Source: an uncultured Mycoplasmatota bacterium (GTDB lineage Bacteria > Bacillota_I > Bacilli_A > RF39 > UBA660). Taken from it: a stretch of DNA of 64,000 nucleotides. Of the stretch, positions 5,634-37,200 are shown piece by piece. Position 1 is the first letter of the stretch, and every line of letters begins with the position of its first letter. The notes under the pieces are model-generated. The model made no database searches, had not been told where the DNA came from, and saw nothing but the letters and a program-made list of their open reading frames with translations. The translations under genes and the position numbers were made by a program. The stretch lies in contig CANRSQ010000002.1 in the NCBI GenBank assembly GCA_947642475.1, positions 608-64,607 on the forward strand. The letters are read 5' to 3'.

Positions 5634-6524
5634 TTATTTTTTCCTTATTTTAGCTACAAAAAATCCCTCATATAATTCATTTGGACAAACACAAATAGTT
5701 CCTTTAATATTAACAGGCAATAAAGGAATACCATCAAATAAAGGCATATCAATAGGTACTATTTCCACATCATACTTTTCCACAATATAATTCAATACAT
5801 CCTCATTTTCCTCTTTTAAAATAGAACAAGTAGAATAAACAATTTCTCCATCTTTTTTTAAATGCTTAATCGCAGATTCCAACAATTCCTTCTGAAATTT
5901 TACCGAACGACTAACTAAATCAAAAGAAAATACCTTAGAAATAGAATCATCATTGCAATTCAAAGTCCCACTACCACTACAAGGCGCATCTAATAAAATT
6001 TTATCAAAAGTAAAAAACTCATCTAAATTCCTTCCATCTTTTACAACTACACTTACCTTTTTAGAACCTTGTTTTTTAATATTATATTTAAGTCTTTCAG
6101 CTCTGATTTTATTTTTTTCCAAAGCCATAATTAAAGCCTTATTATTAGATAAATTTGCCATTTGCGTAGTTTTCCCACCAGGAGCAGCAGCCATATCCAA
6201 AATAGATTCACCTTCTTTAGGTTCCAAAACAAGAGGAGGTATCATTGAAGATAAACTTTGTAAATAAATTAAACCATCTTCATACATCGGAAGCTTCTTA
6301 ATAGAATCTTCCCTAACCCCATCAATAATTAATGCATCACTATACCAAGAAACTTCCCTAAAATTAATTCCTAAATCAGTTAATTCATTTTTAATAAAAT
6401 CAAGACTAGTCTTACTAGTATTTATCCTTAAAGTAACATTTCGAAAAGAAAGGCCATCTATAATATCTTTACCAACCTCATCACCATACTCTAATCTAAT
6501 TCTATCATATAATTTTTCGCTCAT
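5634..6524 (-). CDS. NOL1/NOP2/Sun (RsmB/RsmF-type) RNA cytosine-C5 methyltransferase
   Basis: [13 protein letters not shown] motif, DAPCSGSG and TCS catalytic cysteine motifs. Confidence 0.75.
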
Positions 6525-6589
6525 AAAATCAGTCCTTTAACGCATTATAACACATTTTAAAACATAGAAAAAGAGTTCAACTAAGAACT

Positions 6590-8650
6590 CTATTGTTTAT
6601 CAATTTTGAAGTTTGCTTGATAACTATTTCCTAAATCAATTTCATCAACATCAATTTTATAACCTAATTTTTCAATTTCATCCGCACAATTTCTAATCAA
6701 ACGAATAACTTCGATAAAATTGTTATCATTTGCTGGAGCACTAACAACATTTTCAGTTACATTGCTTGCCATAGTTTCTGCAGTAGGTGCTTCTAAAATG
6801 TCTGATGATGGAATATCCGTAATAACCGGTTCCGCAGGTGCAGTTTCAAAACTTGGTGCAGGATTTACATTAATAGGTTCTGGAGTAACAACTGGCTGAA
6901 CAACACTAGGTTCACTTGGAGTCTCTATCACTGGAGCAGCCACTGGTTCAATTGGAGCCATTGGTGGAACTGGAATAGTGTCAACAGTAGGTTCAGAAAC
7001 AGCTACTGGAGGAACCATAGTAGATTCCGCAGGTTGCGTCATCATTGGTTCTGGATTAATTTGTCCTTGTGGCTCAAATGTTTGAACTGGTTCTGGCATA
7101 GGTTCAGGTACTACCGGTTGTTGAGGCTCAAATTGTTGAATTGGCTCTGGCTTTACAGACATTTCAGGTTGAACTAATTCATTGTAAAGTGAAGATTGAT
7201 TCACCTCATTAATTGGTTCTGTATTATTAGGAGTTTCAGCCACAACCTCATTTATACTTGTAGACTCAGTCATAGAAACAGGTTCTTCAGGTGCTTTTGA
7301 ATTCATAGCTTTTTGAACAGCCTCAGCAATACTCATAGACTCATTATTAGCTACTGGTTCAACAACATTAGGCGTTTCAGTTTTCATTTCATTAAAATTA
7401 GATTCACTTTCATTAATATTTCCAACAACCATTACAGGCTCTGGATTTACTGGCTGTAAATCAACCGGAGTTTGATTAAAAATACTGTCAAAACTTACTT
7501 CATTAGTAACAACTGGCTCTGGTTTTGGAGCTTCTTCAGGTTGTACAATTCCACTAAAATTAATAAATTTATTTTGTTCTTCATTTACTAAAGGAATTTC
7601 ATTAACTTCTTCTTGAGTTTGAGGCTCAGGATTAATCACAGGTTCTACTGGAACACTAGTTTCAAAAGCATTAGAAACAGGATTATCTTGTTTCATTAAA
7701 TTCGAAATATCTTTATTTTCTTGCGGCGCATTAATATCTTGAGCTTCACGCATAATTCTATCTATATCCATACCCTTTTCATCCTTTCTCATAAGTTTTT
7801 CTTCTAAATCCTTTGGTAAACTAACCCTAATAATTTCATGACTACCTCTAGCCACAGCCCTAACAGGCTTTTTAATAGGCTCGTTTTCACTAAATAAATC
7901 TTCTACTGGTTCACTTTTAACAAAAGGAACTTTAACCTTTTCCGCTTCCTGACTATCAAGCTCATTTGATAATTCTAAAAATTGATTGTTAACCTGAGTT
8001 TCAGTTACTTTAACTTCACTATTATCCATAGGCAAAACATCCTTATCCCCTAATAATTCTTTAATCGCATCGTCTGTTTTCTTAACAGTTAGACGTTCAT
8101 TTATAATTTTATTAAGCATTTCTATTTGCATATTTTTATCATGAATTCTAAGTAAAGATCTTGCATGTCTTTCCGAAATTTTTCCATTCAAAAGAGCATA
8201 CTGAACTTGATCATCTAAGTTAAGTAATCTTACCTTATTCGCAATCGTAGATTGTGTTTTACCTAATTTTTCCGCTAATTGAGCTTGCGTAATATAGCCC
8301 ATATCTAAAATTCTTTTATAAGATACAGCCTCTTCAATTGGAGTTAAATTTTGTCTTTGAACATTTTCAAGTAAAGCAATTTCTTCACTTTCTTTATCAT
8401 TTAAGTTAATAACAATAGCAGGGATAGTACTTTTATTTGCAATTTTACTAGCTTTATATCTTCTTTCACCAGCAATAATTTCATACTTATCGCCAATTTG
8501 ACGCACAACAATAGGTTGAATAACACCATACTTACGAATAGATTCAGCAAGTTCATTCAACTTATTTTCATCAAAATGAATACGAGGTTGAAATCTATTT
8601 GGTAATACATCTTCAATATTTAAAGACGTCAAATTGCCATATTCATACAT
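6590..8650 (-). CDS. parB: ParB/Spo0J-family protein with a very long Pro/Glu/Val-rich low-complexity insert
   Basis: N-terminal ParB/Srx domain with a GERRYKA (CTP-binding GERRxRA-type) box at about 8456-8470, an HTH (TQAQLAEKLGKTQSTIANKV) and ISERHARSLL. It lies next to rsmG, as noc and spo0J do in Firmicutes. Residues about 200-640 are low complexity. Confidence 0.8.
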   Translation of the reverse strand: MYEYGNLTSLNIEDVLPNRFQPRIHFDENKLNELAESIRKYGVIQPIVVRQIGDKYEIIAGERRYKASKIANKSTIPAIVINLNDKESEEIALLENVQRQNLTPIEEAVSYKRILDMGYITQAQLAEKLGKTQSTIANKVRLLNLDDQVQYALLNGKISERHARSLLRIHDKNMQIEMLNKIINERLTVKKTDDAIKELLGDKDVLPMDNSEVKVTETQVNNQFLELSNELDSQEAEKVKVPFVKSEPVEDLFSENEPIKKPVRAVARGSHEIIRVSLPKDLEEKLMRKDEKGMDIDRIMREAQDINAPQENKDISNLMKQDNPVSNAFETSVPVEPVINPEPQTQEEVNEIPLVNEEQNKFINFSGIVQPEEAPKPEPVVTNEVSFDSIFNQTPVDLQPVNPEPVMVVGNINESESNFNEMKTETPNVVEPVANNESMSIAEAVQKAMNSKAPEEPVSMTESTSINEVVAETPNNTEPINEVNQSSLYNELVQPEMSVKPEPIQQFEPQQPVVPEPMPEPVQTFEPQGQINPEPMMTQPAESTMVPPVAVSEPTVDTIPVPPMAPIEPVAAPVIETPSEPSVVQPVVTPEPINVNPAPSFETAPAEPVITDIPSSDILEAPTAETMASNVTENVVSAPANDNNFIEVIRLIRNCADEIEKLGYKIDVDEIDLGNSYQANFKIDKQ

Positions 8651-8765
8651 AAAGTACCCCTCCCTTCTATTCTTTTATATTTATCATACTATTTTTTGGG
8701 AAATAATTCAACATTTTTTTGCAAATAAAAAAAACTTTAATATAAAAACTAAAGTTTTCCCTTAT

Positions 8766-9464
8766 TTATAAAGGCTTTTTCTTAATTTCTGCAAACCTTC
8801 TAGGATATTTCCCGGAAATATTTCCCAATTTTTGAATCTTAATAATTGTACGATTACTATTTTCAAGCGGCAATAAAAATTTATTTTCATCCACCACTTT
8901 GCAATTAAGAACCTTCAAAGCATTTTTACTTTCAGATACTTCTTCATTACCCTTTAAAGCAATAAAATATTTATTTTTCTTAACCAAAGGAATAGAATAC
9001 TCAAGTAAAATATTCAAAGGGGCAACCGCACGAGCAGTTACAACATCAAATAAGTCGCGATTTTTTAAAGCATATTCTTCAGCTCTAGCATGAATGCACT
9101 CTACATCAGATAAACCAAGATCATCACAAACCAATTTCAAAAAATTAATTCTTTTATTTAAAGCATCAACTAAAGTAAGTTTTAAATGCGGAAAACAAAT
9201 TTTCAAAACAATGCCAGGAAAACCCGCACCAGTTCCAATATCACATAAACTATCCACATCATTTAAGTCAATAATCTTACATAAAGTTAAACTATCATAA
9301 AAATGCTTTAAATAAACATCATTTTTATCAGTAATCGCCGTTAAATTAATTTTTTCATTCCACTCAACTAATAATTCATAATATTTTTCTAACTGTTGAA
9401 GCATTTCTTCAGTCAAATCAATATTTAACCTTTTAACTTCACTAATAAATATCTCTCTATCCAT
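8766..9464 (-). CDS. rsmG: 16S rRNA (guanine527-N7)-methyltransferase
   Basis: GidB family (DIGTGAGFPG SAM motif). Position downstream of mnmG. Confidence 0.9.
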   Translation of the reverse strand: MDREIFISEVKRLNIDLTEEMLQQLEKYYELLVEWNEKINLTAITDKNDVYLKHFYDSLTLCKIIDLNDVDSLCDIGTGAGFPGIVLKICFPHLKLTLVDALNKRINFLKLVCDDLGLSDVECIHARAEEYALKNRDLFDVVTARAVAPLNILLEYSIPLVKKNKYFIALKGNEEVSESKNALKVLNCKVVDENKFLLPLENSNRTIIKIQKLGNISGKYPRRFAEIKKKPL

Positions 9465-15110: not shown

Positions 15111-16071
15111 CTTTATGCCTCCTTAAAACTAAACTTTGAATAATTGTAAATAAGCTTCCAGTTATCCAATAAATAATGATACTTGTAGACATTGTAAAAG
15201 ACACAAAGGTGATAAATACCATCATAACATTCATCATTAATCTCATTTGTTTTTCTTGCTCTGGATTAGTTCCACCTAAACCAGAATTCATCTTAAATGA
15301 GAAGAAAGTTGCAAGTCCAACCGCAATTGGAAGTAAAATATAAATCCAATTACCAGTACCAAATGAATCTATAAAATGACTAAATGATAAACTATTTCCA
15401 AATAATGCATTAAAAGGACTTGTTCCTAAATTAAAACCTAAGAACTCCCCTTCAAATACCGCTGGTATTCTATATAAACTTTCAAGGAAAGCAAAGAATA
15501 AAGGCATTTGAATAAAAGCAAATAAACATCCAGACATAGGATTAATATTATACTTCTTATAAATTCCCATCATTTCTTGAGCTTTCATCATTTGATCCTG
15601 TTGTGAAGTACGATTACGATATTTATTTTCTAATTTTTGCAAATCCTTACTAGCAAGTTTCATATTTTCTGACTGCATAGCAGATTTCTTACTAATAGGG
15701 AAAATAATCATACGAATCAATAAAGTTACTAAAATAATCGCTAAACCATAGTTTTTAACAAGCAAACCAATTTGAATAATAAGCCAGCTTAAAGGTTTAA
15801 TAAATATAGTACTCCAAATTCCTTCATAACCACCAGAAGCAGGAGTAAATTTTGGACATGTTGGTAACTTCGAAACATCCACTTCATTTTTTTCATAAGT
15901 TTTCAAAACATCTTTATTTACCGGCTTACATAAAATATTCGAAGTTAAATTTTGGCCAGTTGTAGGTTCCTTAACCACTCTACCATTATCATCTTTAACA
16001 TATTGAGTACATCCAGTCAGTGATAAAGTCATCACAAGAAGTAGTACCACTAAAATTTTCTTATTACGCAT
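15076..16071 (-). CDS. yidC: Membrane protein insertase YidC/SpoIIIJ (lipoprotein type)
   Basis: Lipobox LSLTGC, YidC core (NPMSGCLFAFIQMPLFFA). Synteny rnpA-yidC-jag. Confidence 0.9.
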   Translation of the reverse strand: MRNKKILVVLLLVMTLSLTGCTQYVKDDNGRVVKEPTTGQNLTSNILCKPVNKDVLKTYEKNEVDVSKLPTCPKFTPASGGYEGIWSTIFIKPLSWLIIQIGLLVKNYGLAIILVTLLIRMIIFPISKKSAMQSENMKLASKDLQKLENKYRNRTSQQDQMMKAQEMMGIYKKYNINPMSGCLFAFIQMPLFFAFLESLYRIPAVFEGEFLGFNLGTSPFNALFGNSLSFSHFIDSFGTGNWIYILLPIAVGLATFFSFKMNSGLGGTNPEQEKQMRLMMNVMMVFITFVSFTMSTSIIIYWITGSLFTIIQSLVLRRHKDARNGKKRIKE

Positions 16072-16072
16072 C

Positions 16073-16408
16073 TTATTTCTCCTTTGTTATTTTTATTAAA
16101 TCTAAAGCTTTAAATAAATTATCTTCCATTTCACTAAAACTTCGATTCAATATCCCCTTGCCTACTATTATAATACAATTAAAGTTATTTTGATAGACCT
16201 TTTTATCAATTATGTTTCTTAATCTTCTTTTATATTTATTTCTAGTAACCGCATTACCTATTTTCTTACCAACTGAAAAACCAAATTTATAAGGTCCTTT
16301 AGTACCCTTCTCTACATAAATAATATAATCCTTATATTTAAAAGGTTTATTATTTTTAATAATACGATTAAAATCATCATTACTCTTTAAAATATTAATT
16401 TTCTTCAT
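16073..16408 (-). CDS. rnpA: Ribonuclease P protein component
   Basis: 111 aa, basic, with an RNR-like motif (KKIGNAVTRNKYKRRLR). Downstream of rpmH. Confidence 0.9.
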   Translation of the reverse strand: MKKINILKSNDDFNRIIKNNKPFKYKDYIIYVEKGTKGPYKFGFSVGKKIGNAVTRNKYKRRLRNIIDKKVYQNNFNCIIIVGKGILNRSFSEMEDNLFKALDLIKITKEK

Positions 16409-16436
16409 ATCATCACCTATATAATATATTTAAAAA

Positions 16437-16454
16437 CCACTGGATAAGCAGTGG
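16437..16454 (-). terminator. Hairpin plus U-run between rpmH and rnpA (possible partial terminator)
   Basis: Minus strand reads CCACTG-cttatc-CAGTGG followed by TTTTTA, located between the rpmH stop (16459) and the rnpA start (16408). Confidence 0.4.
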
Positions 16455-16458
16455 CTAA

Positions 16459-16584
16459 TTAACGAGCTAAAACTTTGCGGCCCTTTTTTCTTCTTCTTTT
16501 AATAATATTAGTTTGCATTCTAGCGAAGAAACCCATTTTTTTACTTCTTCTTCTATTATTAGGTTGAAAAGTTCTTTTTGACAT
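16459..16584 (-). CDS. rpmH: 50S ribosomal protein L34
   Basis: Hand translation gives [41 protein letters not shown] (41 aa), with a GAGGAG RBS upstream. It is below the ORF-track size cut-off. Confidence 0.85.
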
Positions 16585-16676
16585 AGATAATTCACTCCTC
16601 TCAAGATAAATTTTTCATTGCTTTATTAATTATATAGATAAAACCTTGATTTGTCAACACTTTTTTCTCTTCAAAG

Positions 16677-16912
16677 TTTTCCACAATAAAAAAATTTCAA
16701 ATAATTAAAAAAATTTTTTCCAGATATTTTTTCCACCACAGTTTTTTTTGAATTAAAATATAATAGCACCTTTTTCAACATATGTGAATAACTTTTAAAT
16801 AATTCACAATGTGAATAAATAACTTTTCCACAATTTTTGTGGAAAAACTTCATTTTCCGCTAAAATTCGACAAAAAATCCATGTGGATATCTTTTTTTAA
16901 ACTTTTTCCACA
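16677..16912. promoter_or_regulatory. oriC left part: DnaA-box cluster upstream of dnaA
   Basis: TTTTCCACA at 16677, 16824 and 16904. TGTGGAAAA at 16838, forming an inverted pair with 16824. TGTGGATAT at 16882. TGTGAATAA at 16783 and 16810. The gene-strand switch occurs here. Confidence 0.8.
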
Positions 16913-16981
16913 GTTTTTATAGAATTTTCCGTAAAAATAATGTAAAATGGTGTTAAGAAACTTTAAAGCAGATAGTGGGGG

Positions 16982-18322
16982 ATGCTTATGGATTTAGAAA
17001 GCACTTGGAGTGTCTTTTTAGCCAAAATAGAAGAGAAAGTAAAACCAGTTCTCTTTGAAACTTGGTTTAAAGACACAAAATTAATAAAACTAACTGAAGA
17101 TACCGCTTTAGTAAAAGTAGAGTGGGATGTTCAAATAAATCACCTAAAAGAAAATTATGGTGAATTAATAAAAGAAACATTTATGGATGTCACCGGATCA
17201 TTATATAAATTTGAATACACAACAATTGAACCAATAACAAAAGAGGAAGAAGAAATAAAAGATAATAACGAAGCCTTATTTGAAAGTGGCTTAGATAAAA
17301 AATACACATTTGAAACATTTATCCAAGGAGAAAGTAATAAATTTGCAAAAGCAATAGGGCTAGCCGTAGCCGAAAAGCCAGGAAGCATGTATAATCCATT
17401 ATTTATATACGGAAATAGCGGACTCGGAAAAACCCACTTAATGCACGCAATCGGTAACTATATAGCCGATAGTACAAATAAAAAAGTATTATACGTAACA
17501 AGTGAAAAATTTGTTGACGACTTTTTAAGTCTATATCGAAAAAATGATAATAACTTCAAAGCTGTGGATAGTTTTAAAAGAAAATATCGCGATATTGATG
17601 TTTTAATGATAGACGATATTCAATACCTTGAAATAGCAAGTAAAACTCAACAAGAATTTTTCAACACCTTTAATGAATTACACACGCAAAATAAACAAAT
17701 TATCATTTCTTCAGATAGATCACCAGACGATCTAAAAAAACTAGAAGAAAGATTAAGAACAAGATTCAATTGGGGACTAACAATCGACATATTGCCACCT
17801 GACTTTAATTTAAGAATGGCAATCCTTGATAAAAAAATAGAAGCACAAGGGATTAGTAGCTTTGTACCAGAAGAAGTAAAAGAATATATCGCTAGTAACT
17901 GTACAACCGATATCAGAAAGTTAGAAGGGGCCCTAACCAGAGTATTTGCCTACGCAACAATCATGAATGGCTCAGAAATAACCATTGAACTAGCAGTTGA
18001 AGCCCTAAAAGATTATATTGGAAAACATATAATATCAAAAAATAAAATAGATAAAGTAATCCAAATAGTTGCGGATAACTACAATATAACTGCCGAAGAT
18101 ATCAGAAGCAAAAAAAGACTAGCTAAAATAGCCGTTCCAAGGCAAATAGGAATGTATATATGTAGAACATACCTAAAGGAATCACTACCAAAAATCGGAA
18201 GTGAATTCGGTGGAAAAGACCATACAACCGTAATGCATTCTGTAGATAAAATAAAAAGGGAAGTTAGTAAAGATAAAACACTAGAAGAAGAAATCAATAG
18301 ATTAATTGAAAAAATAGGATAG
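16982..18322 (+). CDS. dnaA: Chromosomal replication initiator DnaA
   Basis: GNSGLGKTHL Walker A, AAA+ core, C-terminal DNA-binding domain (GGKDHTTVMHS). Confidence 0.97.
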   Translation: MLMDLESTWSVFLAKIEEKVKPVLFETWFKDTKLIKLTEDTALVKVEWDVQINHLKENYGELIKETFMDVTGSLYKFEYTTIEPITKEEEEIKDNNEALFESGLDKKYTFETFIQGESNKFAKAIGLAVAEKPGSMYNPLFIYGNSGLGKTHLMHAIGNYIADSTNKKVLYVTSEKFVDDFLSLYRKNDNNFKAVDSFKRKYRDIDVLMIDDIQYLEIASKTQQEFFNTFNELHTQNKQIIISSDRSPDDLKKLEERLRTRFNWGLTIDILPPDFNLRMAILDKKIEAQGISSFVPEEVKEYIASNCTTDIRKLEGALTRVFAYATIMNGSEITIELAVEALKDYIGKHIISKNKIDKVIQIVADNYNITAEDIRSKKRLAKIAVPRQIGMYICRTYLKESLPKIGSEFGGKDHTTVMHSVDKIKREVSKDKTLEEEINRLIEKIG

Positions 18323-18337
18323 GGGAAAACAATTTCT

Positions 18338-18460
18338 TTTTCCACAATTTTTACACACCCTAAAAATAGCCATTAAAGTGTGTAATTAAAAGAAAAAACA
18401 GACTTTTCCACACAATCCACAACAATAATAAAAATACTATTAATAAATAATAAAAAAAGG
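18338..18460. promoter_or_regulatory. oriC right part: DnaA boxes plus AT-rich tract between dnaA and dnaN
   Basis: TTTTCCACA at 18338 and 18404, TTTTACACA at 18349, CAATCCACA at 18413, then an almost pure A/T run at 18421-18458 (candidate unwinding element). Confidence 0.7.
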
Positions 18461-25868: not shown

Positions 25869-25902
25869 AAACTATGTTTCACGTGAAACATAGTTTTTTT
25901 TG
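25869..25902 (+). terminator. Probable gyrA intrinsic terminator, formed by the first parS palindrome
   Basis: A 28-bp perfect palindrome AAACTATGTTTCACGTGAAACATAGTTT (25869-25896) runs into a T-run (TTTTTTTT to 25901), starting 4 nt after the gyrA stop. Confidence 0.55.
25875..25890. other. parS site 1, TGTTTCACGTGAAACA
   Basis: Perfect consensus 16-mer. The palindrome extends over 25869-25896. Confidence 0.85.
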
Positions 25903-25948
25903 TATAAAAATATAGTTAAAGCAACATATTTATTACTTCCATACATGA

Positions 25949-25964
25949 TGTTTCACGTGAAACA
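25949..25964. other. parS site 2, TGTTTCACGTGAAACA
   Basis: Perfect 16-mer. 18-bp palindrome at 25948-25965. Confidence 0.85.
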
Positions 25965-26073
25965 TTAATATACTGATAAGAATGTTTAAAAGTTTGATTA
26001 TATCAGTATAAAAAGTAAAAAATTAAATAACAATGTGGAAATATATAATTTTAAATAACAAATTCTGAATTAT

Positions 26074-26089
26074 AGTTTCACGTGAAACT
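26074..26089. other. parS site 3, variant AGTTTCACGTGAAACT
   Basis: Perfect 14-mer core. 24-bp palindrome at 26070-26093. Confidence 0.8.
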
Positions 26090-26171
26090 ATAAATAAAGA
26101 TAAAAAAAACATTCCAATTATATAAAGCAGTAGTAATACAAAAAAACAATTCAACTTATTTTATCAACCAA

Positions 26172-26187
26172 TGTTTCACGTGAAACA
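26172..26187. other. parS site 4, TGTTTCACGTGAAACA
   Basis: Perfect 16-mer. 18-bp palindrome at 26171-26188. Confidence 0.85.
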
Positions 26188-26297
26188 TGGATACACTGAC
26201 AAATACGTTAAATAGTTTAAATTTTAAACCAAAAAATAGAAAAACAAAGTAAATTATGTGGAAAACAATTCGAAATTAGATGAAAAATACAAATTAT

Positions 26298-26313
26298 AGT
26301 TTCACGTGAAACA
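26298..26313. other. parS site 5, hybrid AGTTTCACGTGAAACA
   Basis: Perfect 14-mer core at 26299-26312. The outer positions are asymmetric. Confidence 0.8.
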
Positions 26314-26408
26314 CAAATAGAAACATTTATCATTCTAATTAATTATTAAAATATAATTTTGAAAATAGAAATAAATTATAATCAAAAAAGATTAGTAATA
26401 AAAAATAA

Positions 26409-26424
26409 TGTTTCACGTGAAACA
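26409..26424. other. parS site 6, TGTTTCACGTGAAACA
   Basis: Perfect 16-mer. 20-bp palindrome at 26407-26426. Confidence 0.85.
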
Positions 26425-26444
26425 TTGGTAAACAAAAAAACTAT

Positions 26445-26460
26445 AGTTTCACGTGAAACT
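26445..26460. other. parS site 7, variant AGTTTCACGTGAAACT
   Basis: 20-bp palindrome at 26443-26462. Its centre is only 36 bp from the centre of site 6. Confidence 0.8.
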
Positions 26461-26583
26461 ATGAAAATTAAAAAATAGTAAAGAAATATTTATTCATGTG
26501 ACATATATGATAATTTATAAATAAAATGTGAAAAAAATATAAAATTATATAAGAAAGTGTCATTATAGCAATCACTAACTCAA

Positions 26584-26599
26584 TGTTTCACGTGAAACA
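26584..26599. other. parS site 8, TGTTTCACGTGAAACA
   Basis: 22-bp palindrome at 26581-26602. Confidence 0.85.
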
Positions 26600-26686
26600 T
26601 TGTTGATAAAAATATAACACCTTAGTCAAAATAATCACTCAGAAGAAAAAATAAAATATATATAAACAGTAGTAGAATAAAATCAT

Positions 26687-26702
26687 AGTTTCACGTGAAA
26701 CT
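26687..26702. other. parS site 9, variant AGTTTCACGTGAAACT
   Basis: 20-bp palindrome at 26685-26704. Confidence 0.8.
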
Positions 26703-26790
26703 ATAAAAGAAAGTAAATCCGTAATTTCAAATAATTGCGATCCTATTAAGTAATTGAATAATAATGATAAAAAAATAGAGCAAAACCTAA

Positions 26791-26806
26791 TGTTTCACGT
26801 GAAACA
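26791..26806. other. parS site 10, TGTTTCACGTGAAACA
   Basis: 22-bp palindrome at 26788-26809. Confidence 0.85.
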
Positions 26807-26896
26807 TTAAAATAATAACTAAAATATAAAAAATAATATTGTGGAAAAATAGGATAAATAGATGTGGAAAAACAAAATTTACAGAAAAAACAGTAT

Positions 26897-26912
26897 TGTT
26901 TCACGTGAAACA
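26897..26912. other. parS site 11, TGTTTCACGTGAAACA
   Basis: Perfect 16-mer. Confidence 0.85.
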
Positions 26913-26959
26913 TAGATATAAGTTTGCCTTTTAAAAAAAAATAATATATTATTAATACT

Positions 26960-27036
26960 GGTACAACATTTATGTTCGAACCAGGTCAGAATCGGAAGAT
27001 AGCAGCCTTAAGGACCACTAAATGTGTGTACCTTTT
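26960..27036 (+). ncRNA. ffs: Small (4.5S-type) signal recognition particle RNA
   Basis: Contains the conserved SRP domain IV sequence CCAGGTCAGAATCGGAAGATAGCAGCCTTAAGG with a GGAA tetraloop. The 5' GGTACAACATTTA pairs with the 3' TAAATGTGTGTACC, followed by TTTTAT. A promoter-like TTGCCT(26924)-17-TATTAT(26947) places the TSS near G26960. Synteny with tadA/dnaX matches Bacillus scr. Confidence 0.75.
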
Positions 27037-27051
27037 ATTATAGGTGATAAT

Positions 27052-27521: not shown

Positions 27522-29243
27522 ATGTATCAAGCTTTATATAGAAAATACCGTCCACAAACCTTAGAAGAAGTAGGTGGACAAGATACAATTGTAAAAATAA
27601 TAAAAAATTCCATAAACAAAGGTAAAATAAACCATGCTTATTTATTTGCAGGCCCAAGAGGTACCGGAAAAACAAGTATTGCTAAAATATTTGCAAAAAT
27701 GGTAAACTGTGAACATCTAAAAAATGGAATTCCCTGTGGAAAATGCGTTAGCTGTACGCAAACAAATAATAGCGATACAATCGAAATAGATGCTGCTTCA
27801 AACAATGGAGTAGATGAGATAAGAGAACTGAGAAATAACGTTAATTTGGTACCATCATATGGGAAATACAAAGTCTATATAATTGATGAGGTTCATATGC
27901 TTACAACAGGCGCATTCAATGCATTATTAAAAACATTAGAAGAACCTCCAGCACACATAATATTTATTTTAGCTACAACTGATCCTCATAAAATACCAGA
28001 AACAATACTTTCTAGATGTCAAAGACTAGATTTTAAAAAAATTAGTGAAAATAGCATAGTAAAACGATTAAAAGACATAGTAAAAGCAGAAAATATAACA
28101 ATCGAAGAAGGAGCATTAAGAGAAATTGCCCGTCTGTCTGATGGAGGAATGCGTGATTCAATAGGAATGCTAGATCAAGCCATCGCTTATACGGACGGAA
28201 ATATTACCCCAAAAGATATACATGATATTAACGGAACTTTGACAGCCGAAAGCTTAAAAAATCTAATAAATGTAATAATTACAAGGAAAATAAAGGAAAT
28301 ATTCGAAATATTAGATAATTACAACGAAAATGGTAAGAATTTTGTCAAATTAACAGAAGAAATCATTACCTTTATGCGCAATACGTTATTATATAAAAAT
28401 GCCAAAGAATATTTCATTGGAGTAAACGGAGATACCGATATATATGAAGAAATTTCCAGGGAAATAACAACAACAGAAATATTAAGATATATAGAAATCT
28501 TAAATAACACCATTTTAGAAATGAAAACAACCAATAATACAAAATTATTACTAGAATTAGCAATAATTCAAATGATAAATGAAGAAAACTATCAAATAGT
28601 TAACCACGAAATACAAAAACCTGTGGAAAACTCGATAAAAAGTGTAGAAAAACAAAAAAATGAAACCTATGTTAAAGAAACATCTATTACAAAACCAACA
28701 GTAGAAGAAAAAACTGTGGACAAACCAGAAGAAACACCAAAAGAAACTTCACAACCAATAATAGAAAAACAAAAAATTAGTGAAGAAGGTAAAAAAGAAT
28801 TAGAAAAAATAAAAAACATAAGAATAGATAATACTTTAGCAGAATTTTCTAAAAAACATTTACAAGAACTAAAACCACAAATAGATAGTTTTAATGAGTT
28901 TTTACTAGATCCAGAAATTAGCCCATTCATATCAATTATATTAGATGGAACCCTAAAAGCCGCTAGTAACAAAAACCTAATTTTTGTCTATAAAAACGAA
29001 AGAACATCTAATTTATTTAATGAAAATATAATAAATGTGGAAAAAACAATAGAAAAAGTCTTAAAAAACAAATATAAAGTAATCGCAACCGATATAAATC
29101 ATTGGGAAAAAATAAAAAATGAATTTAATAGTAAAAAAAGAGAGTATAATTATACTGAAGAAACATTCAATCTTGAAGAATTATTTAACAAAAACGAAAC
29201 AAATGACTTTAGCGATTTTCAAGATATAATAGAATATAATTAG
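27522..29243 (+). CDS. dnaX: DNA polymerase III subunit tau/gamma
   Basis: GPRGTGKTS Walker A, zinc module CGKCVSC, SRC motif (LSRCQRLDF). The likely start is the ATG at 27522 (MYQALYRKYRP) after GGGTGA. Confidence 0.95.
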   Translation: MYQALYRKYRPQTLEEVGGQDTIVKIIKNSINKGKINHAYLFAGPRGTGKTSIAKIFAKMVNCEHLKNGIPCGKCVSCTQTNNSDTIEIDAASNNGVDEIRELRNNVNLVPSYGKYKVYIIDEVHMLTTGAFNALLKTLEEPPAHIIFILATTDPHKIPETILSRCQRLDFKKISENSIVKRLKDIVKAENITIEEGALREIARLSDGGMRDSIGMLDQAIAYTDGNITPKDIHDINGTLTAESLKNLINVIITRKIKEIFEILDNYNENGKNFVKLTEEIITFMRNTLLYKNAKEYFIGVNGDTDIYEEISREITTTEILRYIEILNNTILEMKTTNNTKLLLELAIIQMINEENYQIVNHEIQKPVENSIKSVEKQKNETYVKETSITKPTVEEKTVDKPEETPKETSQPIIEKQKISEEGKKELEKIKNIRIDNTLAEFSKKHLQELKPQIDSFNEFLLDPEISPFISIILDGTLKAASNKNLIFVYKNERTSNLFNENIINVEKTIEKVLKNKYKVIATDINHWEKIKNEFNSKKREYNYTEETFNLEELFNKNETNDFSDFQDIIEYN

Positions 29244-34251: not shown

Positions 34252-37200
34252 ATGAGCTTTCTAGATAATATTTTAGATATAGAAAACGAAGAAGAAGTCA
34301 TCGGCTTAACAAACGAATTAAAAAGTTTATACGTTTATAATAAATTCAAAAAAGAAAATAAATCAATAATCTTAGTTACATCAAATCTTCATAATGCCGG
34401 CAAATACTATGCCTCAATATCCCGCCATACTGACAAAGTATGGTTTTTCCCAATGGATGATTTCCTTACAAGTGAAGCCATTGCCATCTCACCAGAATTT
34501 AAAATAAATAGATTAGAAACAATAAATAATCTATTAAATAATGAAAAATGTATAGTAATAACAAACTTAATGGGATATTTAAGATTTCTTCCACCAAAAC
34601 AAAATTTTAAAAATAGCTATATAACCCTAAAAACAAATGAAGATTATAATCAAAATGAATTAATAGAAAAACTATTTAAATTAGGATATAAAAGACAAAC
34701 AACAGTTAATATGACTGGTGAAATCGCCGTAAGAGGATTTGTTGTAGATATTTTTCCAATAAATAGCGAAAATCCAATCAGAATAGAATTTTGGGGCGAT
34801 ACAATTGACACAATCAAAACCTTCAATATAGATAGTCAAAGAACCAAAAGTACATTAGACGAAATAACAATCTACCCCAATACCGAATTTTTAATCGATA
34901 AAGATCCATTCGAAATACCATACCGTGATATGTATAAATATACTGAAGTTACTAGTATTTCAGATTATTTAGATAGTCCACTAACCATATACGATAATTA
35001 TAATGAATTAAAGACAAGCTATAAACTTCTGCAGGAAGAAATATTAGATTACAACATAAGCACTAATCGTCCAGCCAATACAAAATATATGCGCTCTATA
35101 GAAGAAATAAAAACGAAAGAAACATTAAAGTTCGAAACATTTGAAAATCACAAAAACCAAAAAACCACAAAAATATATCAAACAAAAGACATAGAAATAT
35201 TTCCCAAGCAACCAAAAGACATCAACACAAAATTAAATACATATATAAAAATAAATAAAATGGTAGTAATTTCCCTAGATAACCGTTATCAAGTCAATAG
35301 AATAATAGAAACCCTAGAAAATCCAAATATAATATATACAAATGAAAACGAATTATTTCCCGGGAAAATTAATGTAATTATAAAAAAACTAAATAGTGGA
35401 TTTGAAACAGACAAATATATCGTTATAACCCCAAAAGAACTATATGGAAAACAAACCGAAAACAATTATAAAAGTAAATTTAGATATGGTTCAAAAATTA
35501 AAGATATTAGTAAGTTAGAAATTGGAGACTATGTAGTTCATGGCAAACACGGTATCGGAAGATATTTAGGAATAAAAACAGTCCCAAAAAACGGAATAAA
35601 AAAAGATTATCTAATGATTGAATACAAGGGTAATGATAAATTATATATTCCTGTGGAAAAACTAGATTATATTACAAAATATTCAGGAAAAGAAGGAGCC
35701 GCTCCTAAATTAAATAAATTAGGAAGTCATGATTGGGAAAAAACCAAGGCTAGGGCCAAAAAACATGCCGAAGATATAGCCGAAGAATTATTAGAACTAT
35801 ACGCAATCAGAGAATCAAAAAAAGGATTTGCCTTTGAAGAAGATAGTAAAGAACAATATGAATTTGAAAAAGAATTTGAATATAATGAAACACAAGATCA
35901 ACTTAGAGTAATAGACGAAATAAAAAAAGATATGCAATCCGATAAACCAATGGATAGATTACTTTGTGGTGATGTTGGATACGGAAAAACAGAAGTAGCC
36001 TTTAGGGCAATCTTTAAATGTATTTTATCAGGGAAACAAGCTGCCATCCTATGTCCAACAACAATTTTATCTTCCCAGCACTATCAAAATGCCCTTCAAA
36101 GATTTAAATCATTCCCTGTTAATATTGCCATAATTAATAGATTTATAACAACAAAGCAATTAAAAGAAACATTAAAAAAATTAGAAGAAGGGAAAATAGA
36201 CTTATTAATTGGAACCCATAGATTATTAAGTGACGATGTAAAATTTAAAGATTTAGGACTATTAGTAATCGATGAAGAACAACGATTTGGCGTAAAACAT
36301 AAAGAAAAAATCAAACAATATAAAAATAACATAGATGTCCTAACCTTATCAGCTACACCAATCCCAAGAACCTTACAAATGTCTATGGCTGGTATTAGAA
36401 GTTTATCATTAATAGAAACCCCACCCGCACAAAGATATCCAATTCAAACTTACGTTTTAGCCGAAAATAACCAAATCATCAAAGAAGCAATATATAAAGA
36501 AATGGCCAGACAAGGGCAAGTCTTCATGTTATATAATAGTGTGGAAAACTTAGATACAAAAAAAGAACAACTACAAAAATTAGTTCCTGATGCTAAAATC
36601 GCCACCGCTCATGGAAGAATGACAAAAAATGAACTAGAAAACGTAATGATAAAATTCAATAATAGAGAATTTGATGTCTTGCTTTGTACAACAATAATCG
36701 AAACAGGTATTGATATTCCAACCGCTAATACATTAATAATAATCGATGCGGACCATTTTGGATTATCACAACTGTACCAAATCAGAGGAAGAATAGGAAG
36801 AAGTAATAAAATTGCTTATTGCTATTTAATGTATGATAATAAAAAAATTCTATCAGAAATAGCCACAAAAAGATTAAAAGTAATAAAAGACTTTACTGAA
36901 TTAGGTAGTGGATTTGCCATCGCCATGAGAGACTTGTCAATAAGAGGTGCTGGAGACCTATTAGGTTCGCAGCAAGCCGGATTTATTGATAGTATTGGAA
37001 TAGAATTATTTTTAGAAATGGTAAACGAGTCAGTAAAAAAACTGCAAGGAAAAGAAATAAAAGAGGAACCTATAGAAGAAAAAACAAATCCATTAGTCGA
37101 AGTAGAAACCTACATATCAGATGACTATGTCAAAGAAGAAGAACTAAAACTAGAAATCCACAAGAAAATAAACGAAATAGATTCATATGAAAAACTCCAA

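What the first reader, a model, noticed from the sequence alone, without database searches (positions are those of the whole stretch)
6590..8650. Orphan ParB with a roughly 440-residue Pro/Glu/Val-rich disordered insert and no neighbouring ParA
Seen in the sequence: the only ParB-family ORF in the window is 686 aa. Residues 1-200 form a normal ParB N-terminal domain (GERRYKA box) plus HTH. Residues about 200-640 (DNA about 6733-8053) are low-complexity P/E/V/N/Q sequence with recurring EPV, PEP and PVxPEP patterns. Only the last 45 aa or so (NFIEVIRLIRNCADEIEKLGYKIDVDEIDLG...) look folded.

No Walker-type ParA/Soj ORF is adjacent. The neighbours are rsmG and an RsmB-like methyltransferase, and I saw none anywhere in the window.

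Established knowledge: typical chromosomal ParB proteins are about 280-300 aa with a short linker before the C-terminal dimerisation domain. ParA-less ParB/parS systems exist (for example pneumococcus) and act mainly in SMC loading.

Inference: a ParB with a giant flexible linker, combined with an 11-site parS array, could form an unusually large or phase-separated partition complex, or tether the origin to another structure.
Basis: partly seen in the sequence, partly recalled or inferred. Interest (0 to 1): 0.65.

Follow-up and report, generated by a model that had tools for sequence, protein, structure and literature searches.

The report
Noc-type DNA clamp with giant linker

Summary
ORF 6590-8650 (-) encodes 686 aa: a ParB-family N-terminal domain plus HTH (residues 1-204), a disordered Pro/Glu/Val-rich linker of about 440 residues (net charge about -54), and a 44-residue folded C-terminal domain. 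The whole 72-kb contig has no ParA and no second ParB-family gene. Three independent runs assemble the gene without gaps.

**The interpretation needs correcting.** The protein belongs to the Noc branch:
- Its best HMM match is TIGR04285 and its best PDB matches are Noc structures.
- Its C-terminal domain is Noc-type, and the gene sits directly after rsmG.
- Its DNA-specificity residues are Q-K-N-R in all 49 related species. Published work says Q173 and R201 read the Noc-binding site (NBS), while parS binders always carry R173 and G201.

NBS-like sites are strongly enriched in these genomes: 16 against 0.22 for control palindromes, plus 13 perfect sites in 114 kb of related contigs. Some of them sit directly beside the parS array. 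The 11-site parS array therefore probably belongs to another, unseen ParB.

**The linker is not featureless.** It carries motifs conserved across the family, such as MDIDKIMxEAxDIN and FDSIF. These motifs occur in no other protein architecture.

**Verdict:** a new variant of a known kind. What the linker does is unknown.

The parts
6590..8650 (-). Whole gene: 686-aa Noc-type ParB-family protein (stop codon at 6590-6592)
   Evidence: An identical protein is found in independent assemblies.
8357..8632 (-). N-terminal CTPase-fold domain (residues 7-98) with PNRFQPR, GERRYKA and ENVQRQ motifs. It lacks an N-terminal amphipathic membrane helix and a ParA-binding LG(K/R)GL motif.
   Evidence: Pfam ParB_N 112 bits; alignment to Noc structures 7ng0 and 7nfu; motif search.
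8039..8353 (-). HTH DNA-binding domain (residues 100-204). Specificity residues are Q133, K139, N144 and R161, equivalent to positions 173/179/184/201 (Noc type).
   Evidence: Pfam HTH_ParB; invariant Q-K-N-R code in the family; Foldseek against the Noc DBD-NBS structure 6y93, TM 0.90-0.94.
6725..8038 (-). Disordered acidic Pro/Glu/Val-rich linker (residues 205-642, net charge about -54). In the family its length ranges from 211 to 446 residues and it is always net negative.
   Evidence: dN/dS is 0.29-0.46 overall.
7892..7909 (-). Conserved linker motif PVEDLF (residues 248-253)
   Evidence: Conservation across 46 species; also seen in the alignment.
7781..7879 (-). Basic patch plus predicted helix (residues 258-290, PIKKPVRAVARGSHEIIRV...LEEKLMRKD)
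   Evidence: It is conserved in the closer relatives only.
7694..7771 (-). Most conserved linker island, MDIDRIMREAQDINAPQENKDISNLM (residues 294-319). It contains a predicted amphipathic helix at 296-306.
   Evidence: Columns M294, D295, I296, D297, I299, E302, A303, D305 and I306 are invariant. AF2 predicts a helix. Hydrophobic moment is 0.72 with net charge -1. dN/dS is 0.07.
7556..7576 (-). Conserved linker motif QNKFINF (residues 359-365)
7472..7498 (-). Conserved linker motif VSFDSIFNQ (residues 385-393)
   Evidence: F387, D388 and F391 are invariant. AF2 predicts a short helix at 387-391.
7301..7333 (-). Moderately conserved helix SIAEAVQKAMN (residues 440-450)
6794..6820 (-). Moderately conserved motif TDIPSSDIL (family consensus NIPDxDI; residues 611-619)
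6593..6724 (-). Noc-type C-terminal dimerisation domain (residues 643-686; helix plus beta-hairpin)
   Evidence: With the linker removed, the protein covers TIGR04285 positions 2-255 of 255 and gains 14 bits. AF2 pLDDT is about 80. The domain is conserved in all complete family members.
28452..28465 (.). NBS-like site ATTTCCAGGGAAAT inside dnaX, the predicted nucleation site for this protein. Five relatives have a perfect NBS at the same place.
   Evidence: It uses the rare TCC codon.
35355..35368 (.). NBS-like site ATTTCCCGGGAAAA inside mfd
25875..26912 (.). Context only: an array of 11 parS sites between gyrA and the SRP RNA/tadA. It is predicted NOT to be the direct target of this protein.
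   Evidence: The specificity argument rests.

Best explanation
The gene encodes a member of the Noc (nucleoid occlusion) branch of the ParB/Noc CTPase-clamp family, not the parS-binding partition protein.

**Shown:**
- It has a ParB-type CTPase fold with intact GERR and ENxQR motifs.
- Its HTH domain carries the NBS-reading residues Q173, K179 and R201.
- Its C-terminal dimerisation domain is Noc-type.
- It occupies the noc gene position after rsmG.
- NBS palindromes (ATTTCCCGGGAAAT) are enriched in these genomes, written with codons the genome otherwise avoids.

**Inferred mechanism:**
- Dimers nucleate on NBS sites, several of which lie within 0.1-1.6 kb of the origin-proximal parS array.
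- They bind CTP, close into sliding clamps and spread over neighbouring DNA, as shown for Bacillus Noc.

**What is special.** The tether between the DNA-binding domain and the C-terminal domain is 211-446 residues long, always acidic and disordered. It carries four to six conserved short linear motifs, the strongest being an amphipathic helix, MDIDKIMxEAxDIN. [quoted passage not shown]

**Most likely reading (inferred, untested).** The linker is a flexible acidic spacer whose motifs recruit one or more protein partners. These could be envelope, divisome or partition-complex components. The motifs would replace the missing membrane helix as the output of the clamp. The long tether would also create a very large clamp lumen and reach.

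**Consequence for the parS array.** It is expected to be served by a separate canonical ParB encoded outside the 72-kb contig.
For: **Identity as Noc:**
- TIGR04285 nucleoid_noc scores 269.8 bits against parB_part 167.3.
- With the linker removed, the protein covers the whole Noc profile (positions 2-255 of 255) at 283.9 bits.
- The best PDB sequence hits are Noc 7ng0/7nfu at 207 bits, against Spo0J 6sdk at 161.
- The best Foldseek hits are Noc structures, and the DNA-binding domain superposes on the Noc-NBS complex 6y93 at TM 0.90-0.94.
- The rsmG-to-noc-like gene order is kept in a distant relative's complete 1.54-Mb genome.

**DNA specificity:**
- The Q-K-N-R code is found in nearly all 49 species, and ERHAR is invariant.
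- PMC7383237 states that Q173 reads adenine 1 and R201 reads cytosine 6, given a K at 179 or 184, and that parS-specific variants always have R173.

**Cognate sites:**
- The window has 2 NBS hits at <=1 mismatch against 0.01 expected.
- The window plus 50 loci (824 kb) have 16 hits, against a mean of 0.22 and a maximum of 3 for 139 palindromes of the same composition.
- There are 13 perfect NBS in 114 kb of related gyrA-parS-tadA contigs, against 2 imperfect ones in 678 kb of unrelated contigs.
- The sites lie in several different genes. They use CGG (0 of 395 Arg codons in the window) and TCC (3% of Ser codons).

**Linker:**
- It is predicted disordered with short helices.
- It has conserved islands.
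- dN/dS is 0.07 for island 261-322, 0.35 for the rest of the linker and 0.04 for the folded N-terminal part.
- It is always acidic and never shorter than 211 residues.
- A profile of the linker module finds only 45 clusters among 1.84 billion representatives; all are the same architecture or fragments.

**Missing features:** no N-terminal helix and no ParA-binding motif.
Against: - The protein stays below NCBIfam's curated Noc cut-off (284 against 315 bits).
- Position 184 is N, whereas Noc homologues almost always have K.
- It lacks the membrane-targeting helix on which the Bacillus occlusion mechanism depends.
- No canonical ParB or ParA was found anywhere I could look. That covers the 72-kb contig, +-10 kb around the gene in 49 species, and 15 related parS-array contigs. 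The 'second ParB' is therefore inferred, not seen.
- DNA binding, CTP binding and any partner of the linker motifs are untested.
- Both NBS-like sites in the window carry one mismatch.
- All sampled DNA is origin-proximal, so the genome-wide NBS distribution is unknown.
- Part of the linker evolves fast and by tandem duplication (P0162), as neutral low-complexity sequence would.
Confidence: 0.68

Rival explanations
1. First reader's view. This is the organism's only chromosomal ParB. It binds the 11-site parS array itself and builds an unusually large partition, SMC-loading or condensate complex without ParA.
For: - It is the only ParB-family gene on the 72-kb origin contig and within +-10 kb in 49 species.
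- A conserved parS array lies 17 kb away.
- No canonical ParB was seen in any related contig.
- ParA-less ParB systems exist, for example in the pneumococcus (established knowledge).
Against: - Q at 173 and R at 201 are invariant in the family. [quoted passage not shown]
- Perfect NBS sites are kept alongside perfect parS sites in the same intergenic regions. That points to two different readers.
- HMM, PDB and C-terminal-domain evidence all place the protein in the Noc branch.
Confidence: 0.08
2. It is an ordinary Noc whose linker has merely drifted long. The low-complexity expansion is largely neutral, as is common in AT-rich reduced genomes, and adds no new function.
For: - Linker length (211-446) and composition vary widely.
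- dN/dS is 0.35-0.50 outside the islands.
- One member expanded by tandem repeats (P0162).
- An unrelated low-GC canonical ParB (L104) also carries a K/T/A-rich low-complexity insert.
- No Pfam, NCBIfam or PDB similarity was found for the linker.
Against: - Several motifs are invariant across 36-46 sequences that are only 42-60% identical overall.
- Island dN/dS is 0.07.
- The linker is net negative in every member and is never lost.
- The architecture is retained in all 45 clusters found.
Confidence: 0.2
3. It is an artefact: a mis-assembly, a frameshifted fusion of two genes, or a non-coding stretch read as ORF.
For: The composition is unusual and the GC content is locally raised (0.335 against about 0.30).
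Against: - Single contigs from three independent runs span the gene with no gaps.
- Identical 686-aa proteins occur in several assemblies.
- 49 species keep one continuous ORF ending in the same C-terminal domain.
- No standalone homologue of the linker module exists.
- dN/dS is below 1.
Confidence: 0.01

Closest known systems
Noc (nucleoid occlusion protein) of Bacillus subtilis and Geobacillus thermoleovorans (TIGR04285; PDB 7nfu, 7ng0, 7ol9, 6y93)
   Same: - ParB-type CTPase N-terminal domain, 44-51% identical over about 195 residues.
- NBS-type specificity residues Q173, K179 and R201.
- Noc-type C-terminal domain.
- Gene placed directly after rsmG (gidB).
- No ParA-binding motif.
- Cognate ATTTCCCGGGAAAT sites present in the genome.
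   Different: - The linker between the DNA-binding and C-terminal domains is 211-446 residues with conserved motifs, instead of the short linker of Bacillus Noc (283 aa in all).
- The N-terminal amphipathic membrane-targeting helix and helix alpha-2 are absent.
- Position 184 is N, not K.
- The score falls below the curated family cut-off.
- In relatives, NBS sites adjoin the parS array.
Canonical chromosomal ParB/Spo0J (TIGR00180; PDB 6sdk, 1vz0, 4umk)
   Same: - ParB_N plus HTH_ParB architecture.
- GERR box.
- A probable CTP-gated sliding clamp.
- An origin-proximal gene.
   Different: - Q173/R201 instead of the invariant R173/G201.
- No LG(K/R)GL ParA-binding peptide.
- No parA partner.
- A C-terminal domain of the Noc type rather than the Spo0J type.
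ParA-less Firmicutes: Streptococcus pneumoniae ParB, and Staphylococcus aureus with Noc plus ParB (from my own knowledge, not tested here)
   Same: ParB-family proteins work without ParA near the origin. S. aureus is a precedent for Noc and ParB being encoded at separate loci.
   Different: Those proteins are of normal length (about 250-290 aa). The pneumococcal protein is a true parS binder.
FtsZ C-terminal linker plus conserved C-terminal peptide (an analogy of design, not homology)
   Same: A variable-length disordered spacer, tolerant in sequence, presents short conserved peptides that recruit partners.
   Different: It is a different protein family. Here the spacer is internal, joins two folded domains of a DNA clamp, and carries several motifs.
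KorB of plasmid RK2 (a ParB-family CTP clamp whose output is partner binding; PMC11790492)
   Same: It shows that ParB-fold clamps can act through a bound protein partner rather than through ParA.
   Different: KorB is a plasmid repressor with a different C-terminal domain and operator. It has no long acidic linker.

Membership tests
Noc (nucleoid occlusion protein, TIGR04285) | ParB-type CTPase N-terminal domain with GERR and ENxQR nucleotide-binding motifs | tested here: met
   Pfam ParB_N 112 bits. The motifs PNRFQPR, IIAGERR and ALLENVQRQ align with Noc 7ng0. The third Arg of GERRxRA is a Lys here (GERRYKA), and this is invariant in the family.
Noc (nucleoid occlusion protein, TIGR04285) | NBS-specific recognition residues Q173, K179, K184 and R201 | tested here: met
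   The code is Q-K-N-R: three of four residues match. Both base-reading residues (Q173, R201) are present, along with one permissive Lys, which PMC7383237 says is sufficient.
Noc (nucleoid occlusion protein, TIGR04285) | Cognate NBS sites (ATTTCCCGGGAAAT) present in the chromosome | tested here: met
   strong enrichment over shuffles and over control palindromes of the same composition, and perfect sites in relatives.
Noc (nucleoid occlusion protein, TIGR04285) | Noc-type C-terminal dimerisation domain | tested here: met
   The linker-deleted sequence aligns to profile positions 2-255 of 255. AF2 predicts a helix plus hairpin at pLDDT about 80.
Noc (nucleoid occlusion protein, TIGR04285) | Score above NCBIfam's curated cut-off (315 bits) | tested here: not met
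   269.8 bits for the native protein and 283.9 bits with the linker removed.
Noc (nucleoid occlusion protein, TIGR04285) | N-terminal amphipathic membrane-targeting helix (needed for occlusion in B. subtilis) | tested here: not met
   The ORF is maximal and begins about 8 residues before strand beta-1. The N-terminus has a hydrophobic moment of 0.10. The helix is absent in all 49 species. A short 262-aa Noc in L073 also lacks it, so the feature may not define the whole family.
Noc (nucleoid occlusion protein, TIGR04285) | Gene directly downstream of rsmG (gidB) near oriC | tested here: met
Noc (nucleoid occlusion protein, TIGR04285) | Blocks division over the nucleoid and recruits DNA to the membrane | not testable with these tools
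   This needs genetics and cell biology, and the lineage is uncultured.
Canonical chromosomal ParB/Spo0J | parS-reading residues R173 and G201 | tested here: not met
   Q and R occupy these positions in the window protein and in all 49 species' proteins tabulated. One distant member (P0166) has G201 but still Q173.
Canonical chromosomal ParB/Spo0J | N-terminal ParA-binding motif LG(K/R)GL | tested here: not met
   The motif search found none.
Canonical chromosomal ParB/Spo0J | Adjacent parA (soj) | tested here: not met
Canonical chromosomal ParB/Spo0J | parS sites in the genome bound by the protein | tested here: inconclusive
   parS sites are present, but whether this protein binds them cannot be tested here. 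The residue code argues against it.

The most novel reading that the evidence does not exclude
In this uncultured, small-genome gut lineage the long-linker Noc is not a general nucleoid-occlusion factor. It is instead a dedicated origin-region organiser.

- It loads at NBS sites built into or next to the parS array.
- It spreads into the ParB-parS complex.
- Through its roughly 300-450-residue acidic tether and conserved peptide motifs, it anchors the origin to an envelope or division component.
- It thereby takes over the positioning role that ParA plays elsewhere.

A still bolder version is that it is the only ParB-family protein in these genomes.
Probability: 0.15. Interest if true: 0.75.

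Novelty: new variant of a known kind. Interest (0 to 1): 0.5.

Why it matters
Noc has so far been studied only in Bacillus and Staphylococcus. There it works through an N-terminal membrane helix and a short linker. This variant matters for four reasons:

- **The Noc/NBS pair reaches further than known.** It extends, with a perfectly conserved 14-16-bp site, into a deep uncultured gut lineage with genomes of about 1.3-1.5 Mb. The relatives include Ca. Coprosoma, placed in order RF39.
- **The clamp chassis has been re-equipped.** The membrane helix is absent, as it also is in a short 262-aa Noc on an unrelated contig (L073). A long acidic spacer with conserved peptide motifs has been gained. This offers a natural experiment on how far the DBD-CTD tether of a CTP-gated clamp can be stretched. 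It also bears on how such clamps couple to partners.
- **NBS sites abut a conserved parS array.** This suggests cross-talk between the two paralogous clamp systems at the origin, which I found nowhere in the searched literature.
- **It is a practical warning.** 'ParB' calls next to rsmG in Firmicutes-like genomes should be checked for the Q173/R201 code before being paired with parS sites.

Tried and rejected
**Searching for a canonical ParB or ParA in the same genomes.**
- tblastn of the window, of 49 GTDB loci (+-10 kb each) and of 119 parS-array contigs found none in the lineage.
- The rest of the contig encodes only ribosomal-protein genes and their operon neighbours.
- Whole MAG chromosomes could not be read with these tools.
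- I laid contigs from four mouse-gut or gut runs on a soj-spo0J reference (L073) at 80% likeness, hoping to spot a contig at the organism's own depth. The result was too noisy, with dozens of organisms matching.
- I ran no further search on this, because the listed top 120 hits would not be lineage-specific.

**Homology of the linker.**
- Pfam, NCBIfam and a PDB profile search found nothing (best E-value 0.47).
- The 1.84-billion-protein profile search found only the same family.
- This rejects the ideas of a 'fusion with a known module' and of a 'standalone partner gene'.

**A membrane-targeting helix hidden in the linker.** The most amphipathic segment (296-306) has net charge -1 and low hydrophobicity, unlike the Noc or MinD targeting sequences. 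I judged this unlikely but could not exclude it.

**Other dead ends.**
- The supplementary deep-mutational data for the exact QKNR variant are not in the files held.
- No RNA run holds the gene.
- Phage or plasmid ParB origin: PHROGs hits (up to 124 bits) are much weaker than the Noc hits.
- The first look-up for the window's end used an ORF whose start did not match the gene call.
Full report

Yes. The ORF at 6590..8650 on the minus strand is 686 aa and cannot be extended upstream. Pfam places ParB_N at residues 7-98 and HTH_ParB at 100-199.

Residues 201-640 are 14% Glu, 14% Pro and 12% Val, with a net charge of about -54. AlphaFold2 on a 36-sequence family alignment gave three regions:
- a confident fold for residues 1-204;
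- pLDDT below 50 for nearly all of 205-642, apart from short helices at 280-290, 296-306, 387-391 and 441-450;
- a helix plus beta-hairpin at 643-685, with pLDDT about 80.

No ParA is present. tblastn with Soj found nothing at E<=1, and the ORF is the only ParB-family hit. No deviant Walker A motif (KGGxGK[ST]) exists in any frame. The remaining 7 kb of the contig encodes only ribosomal-protein genes and their operon neighbours. The neighbours are rsmG and an RsmB/F-type methyltransferase.

The gene is not an assembly artefact. Single contigs from three independent gut-metagenome runs span 6300-8900 with no gaps and 3-23 substitutions. Only one trivial tandem repeat is present.

**2. What is it? 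A Noc-branch protein, not the partition ParB.**

Six lines of evidence point the same way:
- NCBIfam's best model is TIGR04285 (nucleoid occlusion protein) at 269.8 bits, against 167.3 for the generic ParB model.
- When I cut the linker out (residues 1-214 joined to 636-686), the protein aligned to the Noc profile end to end (positions 2-255 of 255) at 283.9 bits. The last 45 residues are therefore a Noc-type C-terminal domain. The score is still under the curated cut-off of 315.
- The best solved-structure matches are Geobacillus and Bacillus Noc (207 bits, 44-51% identity), ahead of Spo0J (161 bits).
- Foldseek gives the same order. The DNA-binding domain superposes on the Noc-NBS complex 6y93 at TM 0.90-0.94.
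- The gene sits directly after mnmE-mnmG-rsmG, which is the noc position. The same order is kept in a distant relative's circular 1.54-Mb genome.
- The N-terminus lacks the ParA-binding LG(K/R)GL peptide.

**3. Which DNA does it read?**

Jalal et al. 2020 (PMC7383237) showed that four positions decide between parS and NBS. ParB is R173-T179-A184-G201 and Noc is Q-K-K-R. [quoted passage not shown]

The window protein has Q133, K139, N144 and R161, which is Q-K-N-R. The same code, with occasional K, S or D at the third position, occurs in all 49 related species, and ERHAR is invariant. The predicted target is therefore the NBS, ATTTCCCGGGAAAT, and not parS.

**4. Are NBS sites there?**

Yes, and they are far more frequent than chance allows:
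- The window has two sites with one mismatch each, at 28452 in dnaX and 35355 in mfd, against 0.01 expected.
- Across the window plus 50 related loci (824 kb) there are 16 sites at <=1 mismatch. The 139 other palindromes of identical composition average 0.22, with a maximum of 3.
- The sites lie in several different genes and often encode I-S-R-E/K. They use CGG, which accounts for 0 of 395 Arg codons in the window's large genes, and TCC, which accounts for 3% of Ser codons. This points to selection on the DNA rather than on the protein.
- A metagenome scan for parS arrays returned 15 low-GC contigs with the window's layout, gyrA - parS array - tadA (GyrA 54-77% identical). They contain 13 perfect NBS sites in 114 kb. 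The other contigs contain 2 imperfect sites in 678 kb.

**5. Relation to the parS array.**

The 11-site array at 25875-26912 is real and intergenic. It lies between gyrA and the SRP RNA/tadA, and the layout is conserved in relatives.

- In five relatives, one or two perfect 16-bp NBS palindromes sit inside the same intergenic region. They come directly after the last parS, at parS-like spacing of 114-158 bp.
- In five others, a perfect NBS lies about 1.5 kb past the start of tadA. This is the same place in dnaX as the window's 28452 site.

Two site types are thus kept side by side, and each matches a different residue code. That argues for two readers.

I infer a canonical ParB elsewhere in the genome, but I could not verify it. 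None lies on the 72-kb contig, within +-10 kb of the gene in 49 species, or on any low-GC parS-array contig. Whole genomes were out of reach. From my own knowledge, S. aureus is a precedent: it is a ParA-less Firmicute with Noc and ParB at separate loci.

**6. The linker.**

*Distribution.* A scan of one genome per species, using only linker sequence, found 49 species. All are uncultured gut Bacilli or 'Tenericutes' MAGs. They include Ca. Coprosoma, which is GTDB genus CAG-822 in order RF39 according to PMC8035907. Three are complete chromosomes of 1.34-1.54 Mb. The window's own organism is seen in mouse-gut metagenomes.

*Size and charge.* The proteins are 455-693 aa (up to 766 among the cluster representatives). 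The linker is 211-446 residues and is net negative in every case.

*Conserved motifs.* The linker is not featureless. Across 36-46 sequences that are only 42-60% identical overall, these islands persist:
- PVExLF (residues 248-253);
- MDIDKIMxEAxDIN...KDISxLM (294-319, many invariant columns, with a predicted amphipathic helix);
- NKF(I/V)NF (359-365);
- (V/T)(S/T)FDS(I/M)F(N/H)Q (385-393);
- AVQKAMN (440-450);
- NIPDxDI (611-619).

*Selection.* Between the window and its closest species, dN/dS is 0.04 for the folded N-terminal part. It is 0.07 for island 261-322, 0.35 for the rest of the linker and 0.12 for the C-terminal domain.

*No outside homology.* A profile of residues 262-400 searched against 1.84 billion representative proteins found only 45 clusters. 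All share this architecture or are fragments of it. Pfam, NCBIfam and PDB show no similarity. The linker is therefore a lineage-specific elaboration, not a fused known module.

**7. How it most likely works.**

*Shown:* the family, fold, specificity code, cognate sites, disorder and motif conservation.

*Inferred from Bacillus Noc (PMC8429893):* the protein nucleates on NBS, closes into a CTP-dependent clamp and slides.

The Bacillus output device is a 10-residue N-terminal amphipathic helix, without which occlusion fails. It is absent here: residues 1-8 correspond only to the loop before strand beta-1. A short 262-aa Noc on an unrelated contig also lacks the helix, so this alone is not unique.

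My best reading is that the acidic tether presents the conserved motifs to one or more protein partners. These could be envelope, divisome or partition-complex components. The tether would also enlarge the clamp's lumen and reach. The most amphipathic segment (296-306) has net charge -1 and low hydrophobicity, so it looks like a protein-binding helix rather than a membrane-binding one. This step is speculation.

The main rival for the linker is neutral low-complexity growth. It is supported by the variable length, the faster evolution and tandem-repeat expansion in one member. It is opposed by the invariant motifs and the constant acidity.

**8. Novelty and verdict.**

I found no paper describing a Noc or ParB with such a linker, nor Noc in RF39-type bacteria. 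A 2025 survey of ParB-CTPase folds lists Noc only as a canonical-architecture orphan.

The thing itself is a new variant of a known kind: a Noc-type clamp with a giant, motif-bearing acidic linker and no N-terminal membrane helix. Its binding sites adjoin the origin's parS array. Interest is moderate (0.5). It would rise sharply if the complete genomes turn out to hold no other ParB, or if the motifs tie the origin to the envelope.

Noticed in passing
window 25875-26912; L069, L078, L079, L105, L106, L108, L135, L141, L146, L152, L154, L155, L160, L171, L172: The gyrA - parS array - (SRP RNA) - tadA layout is conserved in 15 related low-GC contigs, each with 3-8 perfect parS cores at roughly 85-160 bp spacing. 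Arrays of at least three parS at about 100-bp spacing are also common in unrelated metagenome contigs: 119 or more hits, some carrying 20-55 sites (for example L100, L123, L132).
   Followed up: partly
L154 1764-1777 and 1920-1933; L152 556 and 713; L146 734; L141 1361; L108 2809: Perfect 16-bp NBS palindromes (TATTTCCCGGGAAATA) sit at the tadA-side end of the parS array, at parS-like spacing. In L154 the two copies lie within a roughly 45-bp direct repeat. These are mixed parS/NBS arrays, which I have not seen described.
   Followed up: partly
window 26950-27046: A bacterial small SRP RNA (RF00169, 60.8 bits) lies just after the parS array. It overlaps the first ATG of the mechanically listed tadA ORF (27022), so the real tadA start is probably the ATG at about 27053.
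   Followed up: partly
P0062 / L001 10001-12073 (690-aa form) versus P0075 (611-aa form): The 690-aa Coprosoma-type proteins carry an in-frame tandem duplication of about 60-80 residues. It repeats the last helices of the DNA-binding domain (ISEGHARSLLRPSDQADQVKMLQRIYNERLTGKMTDNEIAKLKEEKNKQ). The 611-aa forms lack it.
   Followed up: no
P0162 (766 aa) and P0166 (538 aa): P0162's linker contains about 10 tandem copies of PAAQPSVSPAMPELPFPGPVE. P0166 has G instead of R at position 201 (ISEGHAK, code Q-K-N-G). In the published mutant series this combination shifts specificity to a parS/NBS hybrid site.
   Followed up: no
L104 1206-2504 (-): In an unrelated low-GC contig, a canonical ParB (LGKGL motif, R173, G201, next to soj and a parS array) carries a K/T/A-rich repetitive insert of about 150 residues. 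The insert lies between the ParA-binding peptide and the N-terminal domain. This is another case of low-complexity expansion in a ParB-family protein.
   Followed up: no
L073 4382-5170 (-): A short (262-aa) Noc with the full Q-K-K-R code, in an mnmG-rsmG-noc-prs-soj-spo0J locus, also lacks any N-terminal amphipathic extension. The membrane helix may therefore not be universal among Noc homologues.
   Followed up: no
window, 22 large ORFs: CGG is never used for Arg (0 of 395 codons) and TCC is rare for Ser (3%). Both codons appear in NBS-like sites embedded in genes, in this lineage's mnmE (ATT TCC CGG AAA) and elsewhere.
   Followed up: yes
window 16000-18400: Cumulative GC skew turns at about 17-18 kb, next to rnpA/rpmH and dnaA (16982-18322). 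The window therefore spans the replication origin.
   Followed up: no
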